A stretch of 64,000 nt of DNA. Source: the human T2T-CHM13v2.0 reference genome, Homo sapiens. A model generated the notes under the pieces. That model did no database searches and was not told the DNA's origin. It was given only the letters and a program-made list of their open reading frames with translations. The translations under genes were made by a program, and so were the position numbers. The stretch lies in the NCBI RefSeq assembly GCF_009914755.1, contig NC_060931.1; one strand, written 5' to 3'. Positions 10,175 through 22,479 of this stretch are shown one piece after another (positions within the stretch are counted from its first letter, which is position 1; each line of letters begins with the position of its first letter).

Positions 10175-14900
<4,726 letters not shown>

Positions 14901-15299
14901 ATAGCAATGTAAACATATTATTTAGAAATGTGGAGCTAAATAACAGTGAAAACAGTTAACAGACATCAAAGTGGATGCCTCTGGGATGAGAACTGACTTG
15001 GGGAGGGCTGGAGGAGGGAACATCTCTGTATTAGAAGGCTTTGATGTTATTTTATTTTGAAACCTTATGCATGTATAACTTTGATAATATATTCATTTGT
15101 GGATTGCCACATTGTTTTCGAGGAAAATACCCATGTGTTCTTACATGAATAATCAGGCATAGACCAGTGCTTTGAATATATAAAAATTCTGTTTAGCCAT
15201 GATAATTTTGGCAGTATGCCATTTATTTCTGTTGCCAAAGGCAGTGATTTAAATTGGAATTCCTGCCTGGGATGAGTAGGGCTAAGAGGTTTGATTACA

Positions 15300-16135
15300 T
15301 ATAGTTTCCCCATCTGTACTCTGGCCTCCAGCAGTTTGTTCTTTATGCAGCAGCGAAGAGTGATCATAAATAAGCTTATCTCACTCTCCAGTTTGAAAGC
15401 TACTAAACGTCTTTCATAGCAATTAGAATAAAATTCAAACTCTTCGGCATGGCCTACACACAAGGCCCTAAATAATGTAAATGATTGGACTCGCTCCCAG
15501 TTCTCCTGTCACTCTCCTCAATCACCATGCCCCAGCCTCAGTGGCCTTCCTTGGCACACCCACAGCTCATTCCTACCTCAAGGCCTTTGACTTGCCATTG
15601 CTCATGAGACCGATTGCTTACCATCACTCAGGATCTCATTCAAAACTTCATTCCTGGAAAAGGTCCTTCCTGATCATCAAGCTAGAGGAGCTTGCTGCAC
15701 CCCTTCTCTGCCCACAGCTATGGATCTCCAAGTGTGGGCTTCAGACCAGAAGCGTCAGTGTTGCCTGCAAGCATTTCATTTTGTGTTGTGTTTTCTCTGG
15801 AAATGCAGAGTCTTAGGCCCCACCACAGACCCACTGAAGGAAAAGCTGCATTTTAACCAGACCCCAAAGTGATTGTGCTTTAAAAATTTCAGAAGCACTG
15901 ATCTAGAGTTTCCCCTTCTAATTTTCCTGTGTATCTGTTACAAGGTGTGTCCATTGCTGCAGGTAATCTGGAATGTGTTTACATGTTTATTGTTTCTCTT
16001 CCCTAAATAGAATTTAAGGTCCACAAGGGCAGCACCTTGTCTGGCTCGTTCACTTCTGGATCCCCGGCACGTAGCGTCAGTGCACACAGTACATGCTCAA
16101 TAAGTATTTAGATGAGTGAAAGAATAAATGAATAT
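15300..16135 (+). mobile_element. L2 fragments with embedded MER5A (~15715-15905)
   Basis: L2 3' end (catgctcaataagtatttagatgagtgaaagaataaatgaa). MER5A-type gaaatgcagagtcttaggcccc...tgcattttaaccagaccccaaagtgatt. Confidence 0.55.
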
Positions 16136-17110
16136 AATGGAAATTATTTTATGTTCTTTGAAATGTATAACTGAAGGCTGGGTGTCATAGCTCGGCCTGT
16201 AATCCCAGCACTTTGGGAGGTCAAGGTGGGGGGATTGCTTGAGTCCAGTATTTCGAGACCAGTCTTGGCACATGGGAAAGCCCCAACTCTACAAAAAATA
16301 CAAAAAAAAAAGGATTGTATAATTGTACAATAAAATTTCATGGCGGCTGGGCGCGGTGGTTCACGCCTGTAATCCTAGCACTTTGGGAGGCCAAGTTGGG
16401 CAGATCACAAGGTCAGGAGATTGAGACCATCCTGGCTAACATGGTGAAACCCTGTCTCTACTAAAAAAAATACAAAAAATTAGCCGGGCGTGGTGGTGGG
16501 TGCCTGTAGTCCCAGCTACTCTGGAGACTGAGGCAGGAGAATGGCATGAACCCGGGAGGCGGAGCTTGCAGTGAGCTGAGACCGTCCACTGCACTCTAGC
16601 CTGGGTGACAGAGCGAGACTCCGTCTCAAAAAAAAAAAAAATCTTCATGGCTTTCACTTGTTTGTAAAATCGGGGTGATTTTTCTCTCCCAACATCACTG
16701 TTACACAGGGGTTTCATTCTGTATCTTGGGCATCGAGTGCCATTAAACTATTGTGGTCCGTGGAGAATCACTTATTTATCCTTGTTTTGGGGCAGTTTGT
16801 CTTCAGAACCAAAGTTTAGATTTTGTTTAGAGTGTTTCTCTACTGACTTAACACCATAACTGGTTATTTATTTTTTAGCATTTAAGAAGCACTCTCGTTC
16901 AAGCCAGAGTTAACATTATCTTTAAAGGTTTTGTTATTCACAATGAATGTTAGCTTGTTATTTGTATCAAGTTTTATCAAATCAGTATTAACAATTTAAA
17001 AAAGAAAATCAGGTTTTAAAAATATTAAGTCATATCCAAGATTTAAAGTTAAATTGCAAATAAAAACTGATAGGGCATATAATGTATCCGGTTTTTTACT
17101 TCTGAGATAG

Positions 17111-17372
<262 letters not shown>

Positions 17373-17564
17373 TGACCACGTGATCTGCTCACCTCGGCCT
17401 CCCAAGGTGCTGGGATTACAGGAGTGAGCCACGGGCCCAGTCCTACATTTAAAAAATACATTCCCAGTATATTTCTTAATGCATATCCTGGTGAAATTTG
17501 TGAAGAAACAACTTTTCAATCTATATTCTTTGAGTGAATAAATAGCACCCCTTACATCTATGGC

Positions 17565-17768
17565 TTTTAACTGGTGGCAGTTGTTTCCCAGTGGACGTTT
17601 GGCAATGGCTGTGACTGCATTTTTGGTAGTCACACCTGGGGTGGAGGAGTACTGGCAGCATCTAGTTGGGGGAGCCCCGGGGTACTGTTATGTAATGCAC
17701 AGAACACCCCACAGCACAAAGAATTATCTAGCCCAAAATGTCAGTAGTCCACTGTTAAGAGACAGTGG
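17565..17768 (+). mobile_element. MER20 DNA transposon fossil
   Basis: ggacgtttggcaatggctgtgactgcatttttggtagtcac...cagcacaaagaattatctagcccaaaatgtcagtagt. Confidence 0.7.
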
Positions 17769-18120
17769 ACAACTGTCTCCTTCTGCATAGAGAAGTCTCC
17801 TTCTGCAAATACTAATGCCATTGGAAAACGAATACTTTGCCCTACCTTCTGGAGAAGAGAATATATAGAAATTGGCAACTGAGAGATTCAGATGGGTATA
17901 CTGGCACCTTTAGATATGTTCATTTTAGATGATTATTTCTAATCAGAAATCTAGTGACTGGCCTCCCTCTCTTTGGGGCAAATCACTCTCTCAACACAGG
18001 ACATTTAAGACATTTCACAACTTAGTTGATTTTAGAATTGGATAACGTTCTCAAATAATGATACATTTTTTAAAATAGGGAAATTCAAATATAGGGTTAC
18101 TGGTTTTCCTTATTTTACAG

Positions 18121-18230
18121 ATGGGGTCGAGGATTTGGTCTTTTGGGTTCCATTTTTGGAAAGGATGGTGTATTAAACCAGCCAAACAGTGTCTTTGGAC
18201 TTATATTTTATATACTACAGTTATTACTTG
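18121..18230 (+). pseudogene. VKORC1L1 (exon copy): Isolated copy of VKORC1L1 exon 2 (110 nt)
   Basis: ttttccttattttacag|A TGG GGT CGA GGA TTT...TTA TTA CTT G|gtaagt = [36 protein letters not shown], identical to the recalled VKORC1L1 protein. The exon-3 ORF (MTASAVAALIL..., >60 aa) is absent from the ORF track, and exon 1 is not seen. Confidence 0.88.
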
Positions 18231-18606
18231 GTAAGTATTTATCAATACAAAAATAAGTTTGTTATATTCCGTTTAGTACTTTGTGTCTTTGCCCTGAAGT
18301 GTCTTGATGTTAAATAAAAGCATGTGTTATTTATAGAACCACTAGCGTGTACAACATTTTTGTGTTTTGAAAACTTGATTCACCAATATTTTTATTATAT
18401 TAATGTTGACTTTATGTCAATTACTGTTTAATCATGGAGAGCAGTATCTCATGATGTCCAGAAAAACCAGTCCCATTCCAGGAAATTATCACTCCCATCT
18501 TCCCTGTAAACATTTTTCCTTATTTTATAGACTCTGTAGCCTTGAAAAATATCATATATTAAGGGGACATTAACAAGAAACCATATTCATAATCCCATCA
18601 CCTTTA

Positions 18607-19769
<1,163 letters not shown>

Positions 19770-21897
19770 TATCCCCCTTTTCTTTTTGACAAAACCGCCA
19801 TAGTCATTATGGCCTGTTTTTGTTGGTCGTTGTCTTTTTGGAGCTGTTAGATACACCTGTAAACTAACAACAGACAGAACAGGCATGCAAGGATTAATAC
19901 AAATTTACAATAGTGGAACTTTTGATAGTTTTAACCCAAGTGACGAGGTTAAGATTTGTGAGGCCATCAACAGCTTTTACAATTGTCTTAGTTTTTGGTA
20001 CCAAATTTAAATGGGCTTTTGATGCCTTAAAAATTTGGTTTTTTAATTTTGAAATATTTAAAGTAAGATTATTTTTTCTGTTTTGTAGATGGCGTTTAAC
20101 CATGTCCCATTGATGTTCAGAGTCATTATAGGCTCGGGGTGTAATACAAAAATCTGACGTATTTCAGTCACACTGTAACTGAAAAAGATATTTCAAGCTC
20201 ATGGAGCCTATCTCTCATTTAAATGACAGTTTGTCTAAGATTATTAATTTGGTTTGCCAATTTTGGATCTATTTGGGTCTGAGAATTGCACAATTTTGAG
20301 GAATTCTTTTGCCAATTATTTACATATTTAGCAGTTTGAATAGAAGAGTGTAAAGCAATTCCAGCAGCCGCAGCAGTAGCTGTGACTGCAATAAGACCCA
20401 TAATCACATAATTAAAGTAAAAATGAATCTTTTGGATCTAGTTAGAACTTTTTTTAATACTTTTGTTAAAATACGGACAGATGGGGAAGACTCTCATGGT
20501 CGGTCTATGGACACAGGGATCCACATGCCCTCTCTTGCCCTCACTAGCAGAATATGGTGCTGCCAATTAAAAGTTGAATCAATGCAAGTAAACAATCTAC
20601 AATTTTCACAGGTTATAGTTTGGGAATCTGGTTTAATAACTGTGTTTTTTACAACTAGTATATAAGGGGGTTTTACACAACTTTGTAAAGGAATTGTTAA
20701 ATTGGAATTTAGGTTGATAGTATAATATGGCTTACGACTTTTTGGTTTTATAGCTTGATTTCCAGACCAAATTTTAACGTGGTGCAAAGCCACAGTAAGT
20801 TTTTATAATTTTGGATGTTTAGGACTAGTAACAGGACGAACTAACTTTGGTTGAGGTGATGAAATTCTCTTTTTACCCCATTTTTATGGATAGGGTGATT
20901 TAAACCTTTATAAAACCTGGTCTTGCCTTTTAGTTAAATCACTAATAGAGGCTGGATGAATGGGCCAGATGGATGGGGCCTGTGAACATGAGTGAGTCTG
21001 GCCTGTACAATTATAATATAATTGGCCTCGAGGGGCCCAGTTTATAATAGTTTCCAATTTATTGTTTTGTAATACCACAGCAGTATCAGTCACACATTTT
21101 TTCCAAACTAAGACTTTTGGGCCTTTTGATTTTTTGGGAATTTCTTGGGGCAAGGCTTCCCCTTACGCCTAAATTTTAATGATCTTTGATAAGAAGAGTC
21201 CTGTAAATTATTTATCTGTGGCTCCAGTGACATTTCACTTACCATGTGATAAGTAAATCTACTGGTGGCACTGACAGTAGGTACTTCTACCCACCAAATT
21301 TGGGTTGTAGGCGTTAAGCATCCTGGTGCCTTTTCTAGGCAAATAGGGGGATAATAATACCCAATGGAAATATTTATTATTATTTCTTTTTTTTTTTTTG
21401 ATTGGGCACGGCAACGATCATCTGTGGGGCCTGGTACCCACGCACTATTATTAACATATTCTTTAATAGGATTATTTATCCATGTGACTGCCCAAATTAA
21501 GGACAGGAAAGGCACATAGGCCCAGTAAGTATAATTAGCTGCAGCTGTTTCTGCAGACATGAGGAGACTTACCACCGTTGATACAATTATCAAAGCTGTA
21601 ACCAGTATATTTTCTAGAGTTTGTATTACCCTTGTTTTTTTAGGCTTTTTTTAGCTAACTGTGTCAGCTTCTTTAGTGGACCCCAGGTCGGCAGCTCCGC
21701 TTTTTTGGTGGATGACAGCTTTATCTGTTTTTTTGATATTACCATTTTGTTTACTTGGGGAGTCGATGATGCTTGATTGTGGGTTTTTTGTTTTTGCAGA
21801 GGCGCTTTTTTTGCATCTTCGATGGGTTTATTGTAGAACTTTAAATGTCTAGTGGGTATTCAAACAGGAAGCTGATTTTTTTCTGGTGAAACACAAG
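19770..21897 (-). mobile_element. HERV-K(HML-2) type-2 internal remnant: integrase C-terminus + disrupted, hypermutated env/rec
   Basis: ORF fragments match HML-2 Env: [51 protein letters not shown]. The rec exon region and the donor GGTG|GTAAGT (21572) are present. Multiple stops and frameshifts; gag/pro/most of pol and the 5' LTR are missing. Confidence 0.93.
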
Positions 21898-22479
21898 TAG
21901 TCCCAACTACGGAAGGCAGAGGACAAGGGGGGTGAGGCAGGAGGATCACTTTAGCCTAGGAGTTGGTGGCTGAAGTGAGCTATGATCGCACCACTGCACT
22001 CCAGATTGGGTGACAGAGCCACATCCTATCTCTAAAACTAAAAAATTAAAACATACAAAATCATCTTGTTTGGTCATCTCTTAGAAATGGATGAATTCCT
22101 TTTTGAGATGAAGATTTAATGTTTCCCAGATTTCACCTATTATCTTAGTAAACAAAACGGGGACTTAAAGAGGCAGGAGTTAATACACAGAAATACAGGT
22201 ACAGTGCCTCTGCCCTGAAAGCACTTAACCCAGCTGGAGAAAAAAGACAAATACATGCAAATTTTCACAACAAAAGATCTGAGTGACAGATATAGTGATC
22301 ATCTGCCTCAAAGAAAGACACAGCTCATTGCTGAAAGGGTGGCCGAACAGTGTGGACCCTGAAAGACTACAGAACTTCAGAGGAGATCAAATGACTGCAG
22401 TGACCACCCCTGTGCAGGCGACAACTTCTACATTTCTCTCTCAATTTGACCCTGGAGCTGCAGATCCATCTTTCCAATC

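What the first reader, a model, noticed from the sequence alone, without database searches (positions are those of the whole stretch)
19770..21897. HML-2 provirus fossilised by GA>AA (APOBEC3F/D/H-type) hypermutation rather than the GG>AG APOBEC3G pattern
Seen versus recalled HML-2 consensus: systematic E>K, D>N and M>I changes. Examples: PEEEGMMINIS becomes [12 protein letters not shown] (A-run ~21385-21399); VWEECV becomes VWKKCV; NNEFGTIIDW becomes NNKLETIINW; GENQLPVWIP becomes EKNQLPV*IP. TGG codons survive when followed by G (WAYVPF, WAPRG, WVPGP, WVKT) but become stops when followed by A (TGAATA at ~21861; TAAATG at ~20220), i.e. G-before-A context. Edits extend into the LTR (ctaagaaaactc near 18940-18950). 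Established: A3G prefers GG; A3F/D/H prefer GA. Inference: a dead-on-arrival record of a non-A3G restriction event in an old LTR5B lineage.
Basis: partly seen in the sequence, partly recalled or inferred. Interest (0 to 1): 0.72.

Follow-up and report, generated by a model that had tools for sequence, protein, structure and literature searches.

The report
GA-context APOBEC3-hypermutated HERV-K fragment
A truncated, ancient HERV-K (HML-2) provirus on human chromosome 7 was riddled with G-to-A changes by a host antiviral DNA-editing enzyme of the APOBEC3F-like kind rather than APOBEC3G, a known type of event not previously described for this copy in the papers searched.

Summary
Window 18777-21897 (minus strand) is the 5'-truncated HML-2 provirus 7q11.21: pol end, env and an LTR5B-type 3' LTR.

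I compared it with 28 natural HML-2 copies from the same genome and built no consensus. It carries a large sense-strand G>A excess. Where its three nearest copies agree:
- G>A 102/559
- A>G 6/803
- C>T 26/543
- T>C 8/732

The edits sit at GA (57/155), above all GAA (28/48). They are rare at GGG (1/26) and GT (1/105). GG edits are almost confined to GGA.

The same method finds GG-type editing in two young copies, which serves as a positive control. Host flanks show no bias. GA-site editing is 50/96 in pol/env and falls to 3/48 in the first 740 nt of the LTR, just past the polypurine tract. That drop is the signature of minus-strand editing during reverse transcription.

The best reading is lethal pre-integration editing by a TC-preferring (TTC) APOBEC3. 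A3F and/or A3D are likeliest, but the enzyme is not resolved.

- The LTR is largely spared.
- The copy is not unique: a chrX copy shows the same type.
- The fragment lies exactly between two segmental duplications.

It is a new member of a known kind.

The parts
18777..21897 (-). Whole HML-2 fragment (locus 7q11.21 of Subramanian 2011): 5'-truncated provirus made of the pol end, env and the 3' LTR
   Evidence: Colinear homology to 28 HML-2 copies. Its distance to GUSB matches the hg19 entry chr7:65469689-65472384(-) in Table 2 of PMC3228705. No second LTR is present in the window.
21832..21897 (-). Last codons of pol (integrase C-terminus), broken off at 21897
   Evidence: The reading frame is seen. 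No Pfam hit for this short piece. The assignment rests on its position upstream of env and on recall of HML-2 anatomy.
19724..21831 (-). env (type 2, with the Rec first-exon region), read in pieces across three reading frames with at least 13 in-frame stops; the start codon and several tryptophan codons are among the edited sites
   Evidence: Pfam HERV-K_env_2, HERV-K_REC and GP41. PDB match E 8e-92. Frames and stops. Edited GA site at 21829.
19772..19787 (-). Polypurine tract (plus-strand primer site) just upstream of the LTR; the editing rate drops here
   Evidence: Sequence shown. GA-site editing is 8/13 in the 300 nt before it and 3/48 in the 740 nt after it.
18777..19771 (-). 3' LTR of LTR5B type, ending in the terminal CA; almost unedited except for a cluster at 18944-18975
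   Evidence: Indel markers.
21898..22040 (-). Left-hand junction: the interior of an old Alu that belongs to an inverted CRCP-derived duplicon (window 21898 to at least 55114) abuts pol directly
   Evidence: The paralogue at chr7:67.366 Mb has the same Alu uninterrupted.
18655..18776 (-). Right-hand junction: an Alu interior directly after the LTR end, followed by a VKORC1L1-derived direct duplicon (window 11809-18776)
   Evidence: This Alu piece is only 84% like the positional Alu of the paralogue, ranking 26th of 104 Alus.

Best explanation
This is the remnant of an LTR5B-lineage HML-2 provirus whose minus-strand cDNA was heavily deaminated during its last round of reverse transcription. The enzyme was a virion-packaged APOBEC3 that prefers 5'-TC, and especially 5'-TTC, which corresponds to plus-strand GA and GAA.

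Shown:
- The edits are strand-specific and confined to the provirus.
- They are private to this copy.
- They are in GA/GAA context.
- They track how long the minus strand stays single-stranded: high up to the polypurine tract, near background just after it.

Inferred:
- The provirus was already non-functional when it integrated, because its env start codon and several tryptophan codons are among the edited sites.
- The enzyme was an ancestral catarrhine or hominoid A3F and/or A3D. A3H, A3B and A3C are not excluded.
- The 5' truncation came later, from the rearrangements that placed two segmental duplications on either side.
For: Spectrum: G>A 102/559 against A>G 6/803, C>T 26/543 and T>C 8/732. 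G>A exceeds A>G against all 28 natural copies.

Context: GA 57/155, GG 14/116, GC 14/88, GT 1/105. By +2 base: GAA 28/48 (26/33 in pol/env), GAC 3/21, GAG 8/33, GAT 10/35. GG edits are confined to GGA (10/34) against GGC, GGG and GGT together (4/71). In 7 of the 14 edited GG sites the next G is also edited.

Positive control: the same counting finds GG-type editing in two young copies. L050 gives GG 22/93 and GA 8/128. L051 gives GG 19/109 and GA 4/163.

Negative controls:
- Ordinary copies L006 and L003 show G>A of only 31/557 and 32/527.
- Sense-strand C>T shows no TC bias.
- Host flanks compared with their paralogues are unbiased: G>A 14 against A>G 18, and 15 against 23. GA sites are 4/85 and 4/128.

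Gradient: GA sites edited are 50/96 in pol/env and 3/48 in the first 740 nt of the LTR, Fisher p=1.4e-8.

Age class: the private non-CpG change at A, C and T sites is 3.07%. Other LTR5B-type copies show 2.5-4.4%.

Literature:
- A3F cut HERV-Kcon infectivity about 50-fold, while A3G had only a marginal effect (PMC1781480, passages read).
- hA3B and hA3F edit HERV-K in the GA context ex vivo (PMC2531183, section 5 read).
Against: - No orthologue or outgroup could be examined. The direction of change rests on agreement among natural paralogous copies.
- GC-context G>A (14/88) is about twice that of ordinary copies. A pure TC preference does not predict this.
- Editing within pol/env is patchy (chi2 27.6, df 7, p=2.6e-4). 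One run of 10 consecutive unedited GA sites lies at 21322-21144. This is unexplained.
- The rise at the LTR's end rests on four sites, 4/10, p=0.013.
- Dinucleotide and trinucleotide context cannot name the enzyme. A3D and A3F have similar 5'TC preferences (PMC3395617).
Confidence: 0.85

Rival explanations
1. APOBEC3G-type (GG>AG) hypermutation, as published for two human-specific HML-2 proviruses.
For: Some G>A occur at GG (14/116). A3G has a secondary GA preference (PMC3395617).
Against: GGG 1/26, GGC 1/26 and GGT 2/19. Only GGA is edited (10/34), which fits sequential GA editing. GA against GG at non-CpG sites gives p=3.9e-8. The same method does detect GG-type editing in L050 and L051.
Confidence: 0.02
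2. Editing by a TC-preferring deaminase other than A3F or A3D (A3H, A3B, A3C, A3A or APOBEC1 of the ancestral host). The mechanism is the same but the enzyme differs.
For: All of these prefer 5'-TC. [quoted passage not shown]
Against: The strong GAA (TTC) preference fits the A3F hallmark as I recall it; no call tested this. The GT context, reported for hA3DE as 'GA/T', is absent here at 1/105. That argues against an A3DE-like or APOBEC1-like AC preference. Nothing here separates A3H, A3B and A3C.
Confidence: 0.25
3. G>A hypermutation without a deaminase: reverse-transcriptase misincorporation under a dNTP pool imbalance, which also favours GpA.
For: The context is GpA. This older explanation of GA-type hypermutation is recalled and comes from no call.
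Against: Misincorporation during minus-strand synthesis should affect U3 as much as env. GA-site change is 50/96 before the polypurine tract and 3/48 after it. That pattern tracks single-strand exposure, not synthesis.
Confidence: 0.03
4. Change after integration: regional, transcription-linked or replication-linked strand asymmetry, or germline APOBEC clusters on chromosomal DNA.
For: The locus lies inside a lncRNA gene and in a rearranged, duplicated region (hub annotation).
Against: The bias stops at both element borders and at the polypurine tract. 18% of G's have changed, against 3.7-6.4% in sister copies of like age.
Confidence: 0.02
5. The fragment never was a normal provirus. On this reading, a broken, edited reverse transcript was captured by end-joining at the chromosomal break that also joined the two duplications.
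For: The piece lies exactly between two unrelated duplicons. The left junction is non-homologous (Alu interior to pol). Both paralogues have an uninterrupted Alu and no HML-2. No second copy exists in the genome.
Against: The LTR ends at its normal terminal CA. The 122-nt Alu piece next to it resembles neither paralogue's Alu specifically (84%, rank 26 of 104). That suggests the piece brought its own integration-site flank and was joined later by Alu-Alu exchange.
Confidence: 0.05

Closest known systems
The two A3G-hypermutated human-specific HML-2 proviruses (Lee, Malim & Bieniasz 2008, J Virol 82:8762). The paper is not held; I saw only its title and a one-line summary in PMC8155577. That L050 (chr21:16.92 Mb) and L051 (chr3:128.63 Mb) are those two proviruses is my recollection.
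   Same: Same virus group. The event is the same in kind: strand-specific G>A editing private to one copy, with stops in the reading frames.
   Different: Those copies are GG-type (GG 22/93 and 19/109; GA 8/128 and 4/163) and of the LTR5Hs lineage. This one is GA/GAA-type, more heavily edited (GA 57/155) and of the LTR5B lineage.
GA-to-AA hypermutated HIV-1 proviruses attributed to A3F and A3D (Refsland et al. 2012, PMC3395617, passages read)
   Same: The same dinucleotide signature, and the same logic of minus-strand editing with a drop after the polypurine tract. The HIV gradient literature is recalled, not read here.
   Different: The host here was an ancient catarrhine or hominoid, the virus is a betaretrovirus with no known Vif-like antagonist, and the record is fixed in the germ line.
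Genome-wide ERV surveys that report GG-to-AG or GA-to-AA footprints and some hypermutated copies in human ERVs. These are Ito, Gifford & Sato 2020 (PMC6955324, passages read) and Anwar et al. 2013 (not held; known from one sentence in PMC7449416).
   Same: They already establish that TC-type APOBEC3 editing marked human ERVs.
   Different: They work at family level. I found no mention of this locus or of LTR5B in the main-text passages or in the 9 supplementary files held. Esnault 2008 found 'no clear-cut evidence' of GA context in 20 young HERV-K copies.

Membership tests
HERV-K (HML-2) provirus | Internal coding sequence homologous to HML-2 env | tested here: met
   Pfam HERV-K_env_2 E 1.7e-57, HERV-K_REC and GP41. 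84-89% DNA identity to 20 or more HML-2 copies. PDB 'Surface protein' E 8e-92.
HERV-K (HML-2) provirus | At least one LTR joined to internal sequence in the same orientation (criterion of Subramanian 2011) | tested here: met
   env runs into a 995-nt LTR, colinear with other copies.
HERV-K (HML-2) provirus | Two LTRs with a target-site duplication (an intact integration) | tested here: not met
   No second LTR in the 64-kb window. The element is cut at 21897 within pol.
LTR5B subgroup | Lacks the LTR5Hs 4-base insertion (consensus position 461) and the LTR5A insertion (position 135), per PMC3228705 Methods | tested here: met
   The copy lacks the insertion after LTR position about 138 that 16 copies carry, and lacks the short insertion after position about 467 seen only in L024 and L025. 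The subgroup labels of those comparison copies are inferred from chromosomal position, not from a liftover.
APOBEC3-hypermutated provirus (edited before integration) | Sense-strand G>A excess over C>T and over A>G | tested here: met
   102/559 against 26/543 and 6/803. The excess holds against all 28 references.
APOBEC3-hypermutated provirus (edited before integration) | Editing confined to retroviral DNA and graded by distance from the plus-strand primer | tested here: met
   Flanks are unbiased. GA sites: 50/96 before the polypurine tract against 3/48 after it, p=1.4e-8.
APOBEC3-hypermutated provirus (edited before integration) | The same edits present in all orthologues (fixed at integration) | not testable with these tools
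   Only the human assembly is held (one search states that it has no relatives here).
APOBEC3G-type hypermutation | Preference for GG, especially GGG | tested here: not met
   GGG 1/26. GG overall is 14/116 and limited to GGA. The control copies do show a GG preference.
APOBEC3F-type hypermutation | Preference for GA with +2 A (minus-strand TTC) | tested here: inconclusive
   GAA 28/48 against GAC 3/21, GAG 8/33 and GAT 10/35, so the pattern is present. It is not exclusive to A3F: A3D has a similar 5'TC preference (PMC3395617). The TTC hallmark itself is recalled.

The most novel reading that the evidence does not exclude
The APOBEC3 enzyme that hit HML-2 may have changed over time. Among the 31 copies compared here, the old LTR5B-type copies that are hypermutated carry the TTC-type (A3F/A3D-like) signature. 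These are this one and chrX:61.16 Mb, with a milder case at chr11:58.95 Mb. The two hypermutated young LTR5Hs copies carry the A3G signature. Even ordinary old copies show a GAA-biased G>A excess (L003: GAA 9/41 against 2/76 for the other GA sites). If general, this would reconcile two results: HERV-K is strongly sensitive to A3F ex vivo, yet A3F footprints are absent from young copies. It would also date a shift in which restriction factor mattered.
Probability: 0.3. Interest if true: 0.55.

Novelty: new member of a known kind. Interest (0 to 1): 0.42.

Why it matters
Two reconstituted-virus studies found HERV-K highly sensitive to A3F. The copies examined for natural footprints showed only the A3G signature, and one study concluded that A3B, A3DE and A3F made no significant contribution (PMC1781480, PMC2531183).

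This locus is a clear natural record that a TC/TTC-preferring APOBEC3 did lethally edit an HML-2 virus in an ancestor of humans. It includes a textbook drop in editing at the polypurine tract.

It adds a data point on which restriction factors acted on the LTR5B lineage before that lineage died out. It also gives a concrete motif profile against which ancestral A3 enzymes could be tested. It does not reveal a new mechanism.

Tried and rejected
- Search of viral contigs for a reference copy. One relative was found but no locus was released, so I used the window's own genome instead.
- First PDB search used the wrong frame and found nothing. It was corrected.
- Lee 2008 (PMC2519637) and Anwar 2013 (PMC3700199) are not held. 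What they show is known to me only from citing papers and from recall.
- The supplements of Ito 2020 have no occurrence of HERVK or LTR5B in the 9 files held. Whether this locus is among their hypermutated copies stays open.
I fetched only two small stretches.
- Rejected readings, all treated under rival explanations: A3G-type editing, post-integration bias, an RT or dNTP artefact, and a lineage polymorphism.
- The idea that the two Alu halves flanking the fragment are one Alu split by the insertion, with about 31 nt missing, was rejected. The left half is paralogous to the CRCP-side Alu. The right half is a different Alu.
- A duplicate of the element elsewhere, as the footnote 'product of a duplication event' in PMC3228705 might suggest, was not found. 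The best other match is 89%, with 40 of 1466 candidates scored.

Full report
WHAT IS THERE

The finding lies on the minus strand. Six-frame reading and comparison with other copies show an HML-2 fragment at window 18777-21897. It holds the last codons of pol, a type-2 env read in pieces across three reading frames with at least 13 in-frame stops, a polypurine tract at 19772-19787, and a 995-nt LTR ending in the normal terminal CA.

Pfam gives HERV-K_env_2 (E 1.7e-57), HERV-K_REC and GP41. Solved 'Surface protein' chains match at E 8e-92.

Homology to 28 other copies stops exactly at 21897, although those loci held 1500 nt more pol. The window has no second LTR.

By orientation and by distance from GUSB, this is the provirus listed as 7q11.21 in Table 2 of Subramanian et al. 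2011. The entry reads hg19 chr7:65469689-65472384, minus strand, 'This study', with a footnote saying it is the product of a duplication after the chimpanzee/orangutan split. That paper contains no occurrence of 'hypermut' or 'APOBEC'.

REFERENCE WITHOUT A CONSENSUS

I used natural copies instead. The window's own genome is searchable, and it gave 29 other env+LTR loci. I aligned 28 of them with the window copy. L027, whose match was split, was left out.

SPECTRUM

The window copy has A 0.330 and G 0.181. The full-length comparison copies have about 0.30 and 0.215.

Against every one of the 28 copies, G>A into the window copy exceeds the reverse change. Against L002 the counts are 141 and 22, with C>T 53 and T>C 37. 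The weakest case is L023, at 78 and 50.

The strict count uses only columns where the three nearest copies (L002, L030, L004) agree:
- G>A 102/559
- A>G 6/803
- C>T 26/543
- T>C 8/732

Run every copy against its own nearest neighbours, the window copy stands out. L023 shows a lesser G>A excess and L015 a mild one.

CONTEXT

By +1 base:
- GA 57/155
- GG 14/116
- GC 14/88
- GT 1/105

Excluding CpG, against L002: GA 78/194, GG 20/148, GC 15/122, GT 9/151. Fisher GA against the rest gives p=1.2e-16, and GA against GG gives p=3.9e-8. Eight other references gave the same picture.

Within GA, the +2 base matters:
- GAA 28/48, and 26/33 in pol/env
- GAC 3/21
- GAG 8/33
- GAT 10/35

GG edits are almost confined to GGA (10/34), against 4/71 for GGC, GGG and GGT together. 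In 7 of the 14 edited GG sites the next G is edited too. This is what sequential GA editing would give. GGG, the APOBEC3G target, is 1/26.

TGG followed by A is kept at 3 of 10 sites. TGG followed by G is kept at 8 of 9 sites.

CONTROLS

- Sense-strand C>T shows no TC bias.
- The reverse direction, A>G, shows no context bias.
- Ordinary copies L006 and L003 give G>A of 31/557 and 32/527.
- Positive control: two young copies show GG-type editing by the same counting. L050 (chr21:16.92 Mb) gives GG 22/93 and GA 8/128. L051 (chr3:128.63 Mb) gives GG 19/109 and GA 4/163. I believe these are the two A3G-edited proviruses of Lee et al. 2008. That is recall, because the paper is not held.
- Host flanks compared with their own paralogues are unbiased on the proviral sense strand. 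The 5' flank gives G>A 14 and A>G 18, with GA sites 4/85. The 3' flank gives 15 and 23, with GA sites 4/128.

WHERE THE EDITS LIE

GA sites are edited at the following rates:
- 50/96 in pol/env
- 8/13 in the last 300 nt before the polypurine tract
- 3/48 in the first 740 nt of the LTR (Fisher p=1.4e-8)
- 4/10 in the last 264 nt (p=0.013)

The last figure rests on one cluster at 18944-18975.

A sharp fall right after the plus-strand primer site is what editing of single-stranded minus-strand DNA predicts. The prediction rests on established knowledge of reverse transcription; the HIV gradient papers are recalled, not read here. Misincorporation by reverse transcriptase does not predict the fall, and neither does change after integration.

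Inside pol/env the editing is patchy (chi2 27.6, df 7, p=2.6e-4). Ten consecutive unedited GA sites lie at 21322-21144, just downstream of an edited purine-rich tract. A second sparse zone lies at 20628-20279. I cannot explain this. Extra plus-strand priming or protection by leftover RNA are guesses.

LINEAGE AND AGE

With G>A ignored, the nearest copies are L002 and L030 at 93.8%. The 7p22.1 copies are at 85.7%.

The LTR lacks the insertion near position 138 that 16 copies carry. It also lacks the short insertion near position 467 seen only in L024 and L025. By the criteria in Subramanian 2011 that makes it LTR5B.

Its private change at non-CpG A, C and T sites is 3.07%, within the 2.5-4.4% of sister copies. 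Non-CpG G sites have changed at 18.5%, against 3.7-6.4% in ordinary sister copies, with L015 at 10.7%. It is therefore of the same age class as the other LTR5B copies. Subramanian dates paired-LTR members of that group to roughly 15-40 My (table read).

SURROUNDINGS

The fragment lies exactly between two unrelated duplications.

- Window 11809-18776 is a direct copy of chr7:67164747-67171453 on the VKORC1L1 side. Identity is 88-98%.
- Window 21898 to at least 55114 is an inverted copy of the CRCP region, chr7:67366632-67340003. Identity is 87-94%, and it includes the annotated CRCP pseudogene.
- Both paralogues have an uninterrupted Alu and no HML-2 at the matching place.

The left junction joins the interior of the CRCP-type Alu to pol without homology.

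The right junction follows the LTR's terminal CA with 122 nt of an Alu. That Alu is only 84% like the positional Alu of the paralogue, ranking 26th of 104 Alus. The unique DNA beyond it is 95-100% identical. The simplest reading is that the fragment kept a piece of its own integration-site Alu and was joined to the VKORC1L1-type duplicon by Alu-Alu exchange.

On this reading the 5' truncation belongs to these rearrangements, not to the arrival of the virus. A capture of broken cDNA at the break is not excluded, but it is less likely. No near-identical second copy exists in the genome. The best match is 89%, with 40 of 1466 candidates scored.

WHAT IS KNOWN

- Esnault et al. 2008 found GG context in 20 young HERV-K copies and 'no clear-cut evidence' for GA or GT. 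Ex vivo, hA3B and hA3F were the most active enzymes and edited in the GA context, while hA3DE edited in 'GA/T'.
- Lee and Bieniasz 2007 found about 50-fold inhibition by A3F and only a marginal effect of A3G. They noted that natural patterns did not match A3F.
- Ito et al. 2020 state that human ERVs show GG-to-AG or GA-to-AA changes and that some copies are hypermutated. Their held supplements do not name HERVK or LTR5B.
- Anwar et al. 2013 is summarised by Poulain et al. 2020 as showing 5'TC and 5'CC depletion on the minus strand of retroelements.
- Refsland et al. 2012 show that A3D and A3F together account for GA-to-AA in HIV and have similar 5'TC preferences.
- Five library searches found no paper describing this locus as hypermutated.

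VERDICT

The observation and the interpretation both stand. This is a real record of lethal editing by a TC/TTC-preferring APOBEC3 on an LTR5B-lineage HML-2 virus, made before integration.

The kind of event is known, so this is a new member of a known kind. The enzyme cannot be named beyond 'A3F/A3D-like'. The near-absence of GT argues against an A3DE-like GA/T profile.

- The LTR is mostly spared.
- The copy is not unique in type. L023 on chrX gives GA 23/91, GAA 16/35 and GG 14/81.

Noticed in passing
window 11809-18776 and 21898-55114: The HML-2 fragment lies exactly at the seam between a direct VKORC1L1-side duplicon and an inverted CRCP-side duplicon. The second contains the annotated CRCP pseudogene. 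Both source loci have an intact Alu and no HML-2 at the matching point.
   Followed up: partly
window 17697-18296: A 600-nt block is 100% identical to the paralogue about 55 kb upstream (chr7:67.17 Mb). The rest of that duplicon is about 95% identical, so this looks like recent gene conversion.
   Followed up: no
L023 (G000:C23:61161639-61163658); L015 (G000:C11:58952287-58954310): A second old HML-2 copy on chrX shows GA/GAA-biased G>A hypermutation: G>A 53/332 against A>G 11/561, GA 23/91, GAA 16/35, GG 14/81. A chr11 copy shows a milder excess (G>A 45/531). Their edits are largely independent of the window copy's: 18 are shared against 11.6 expected.
   Followed up: partly
window 21144-21322 and 20279-20628: These are edit-sparse islands inside an otherwise heavily edited env. 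The first has 0 of 10 GA sites edited and begins just downstream of a fully edited purine-rich tract at 21378-21398. Heterogeneity among eight bins gives p=2.6e-4.
   Followed up: partly
L003, L006 and other old copies in the alignment: Copies that are not hypermutated still show more private G>A at GAA than at the other GA sites. L003 gives GAA 9/41 against 2/76 for GAC, GAG and GAT together. This hints at widespread low-level TTC-type editing or shared hot spots in old HML-2 lineages.
   Followed up: no
L050 (G000:C21:16921158-16922934), L051 (G000:C3:128629040-128631229): Two young LTR5Hs-type copies show clean GG-context hypermutation: GG 22/93 and 19/109. They served as the positive control.
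   Followed up: yes
window 21385-21399: Editing of a purine-rich env stretch, plus a 3-nt length difference from the nearest copies, has produced a run of 13 A's on the sense strand.
   Followed up: no
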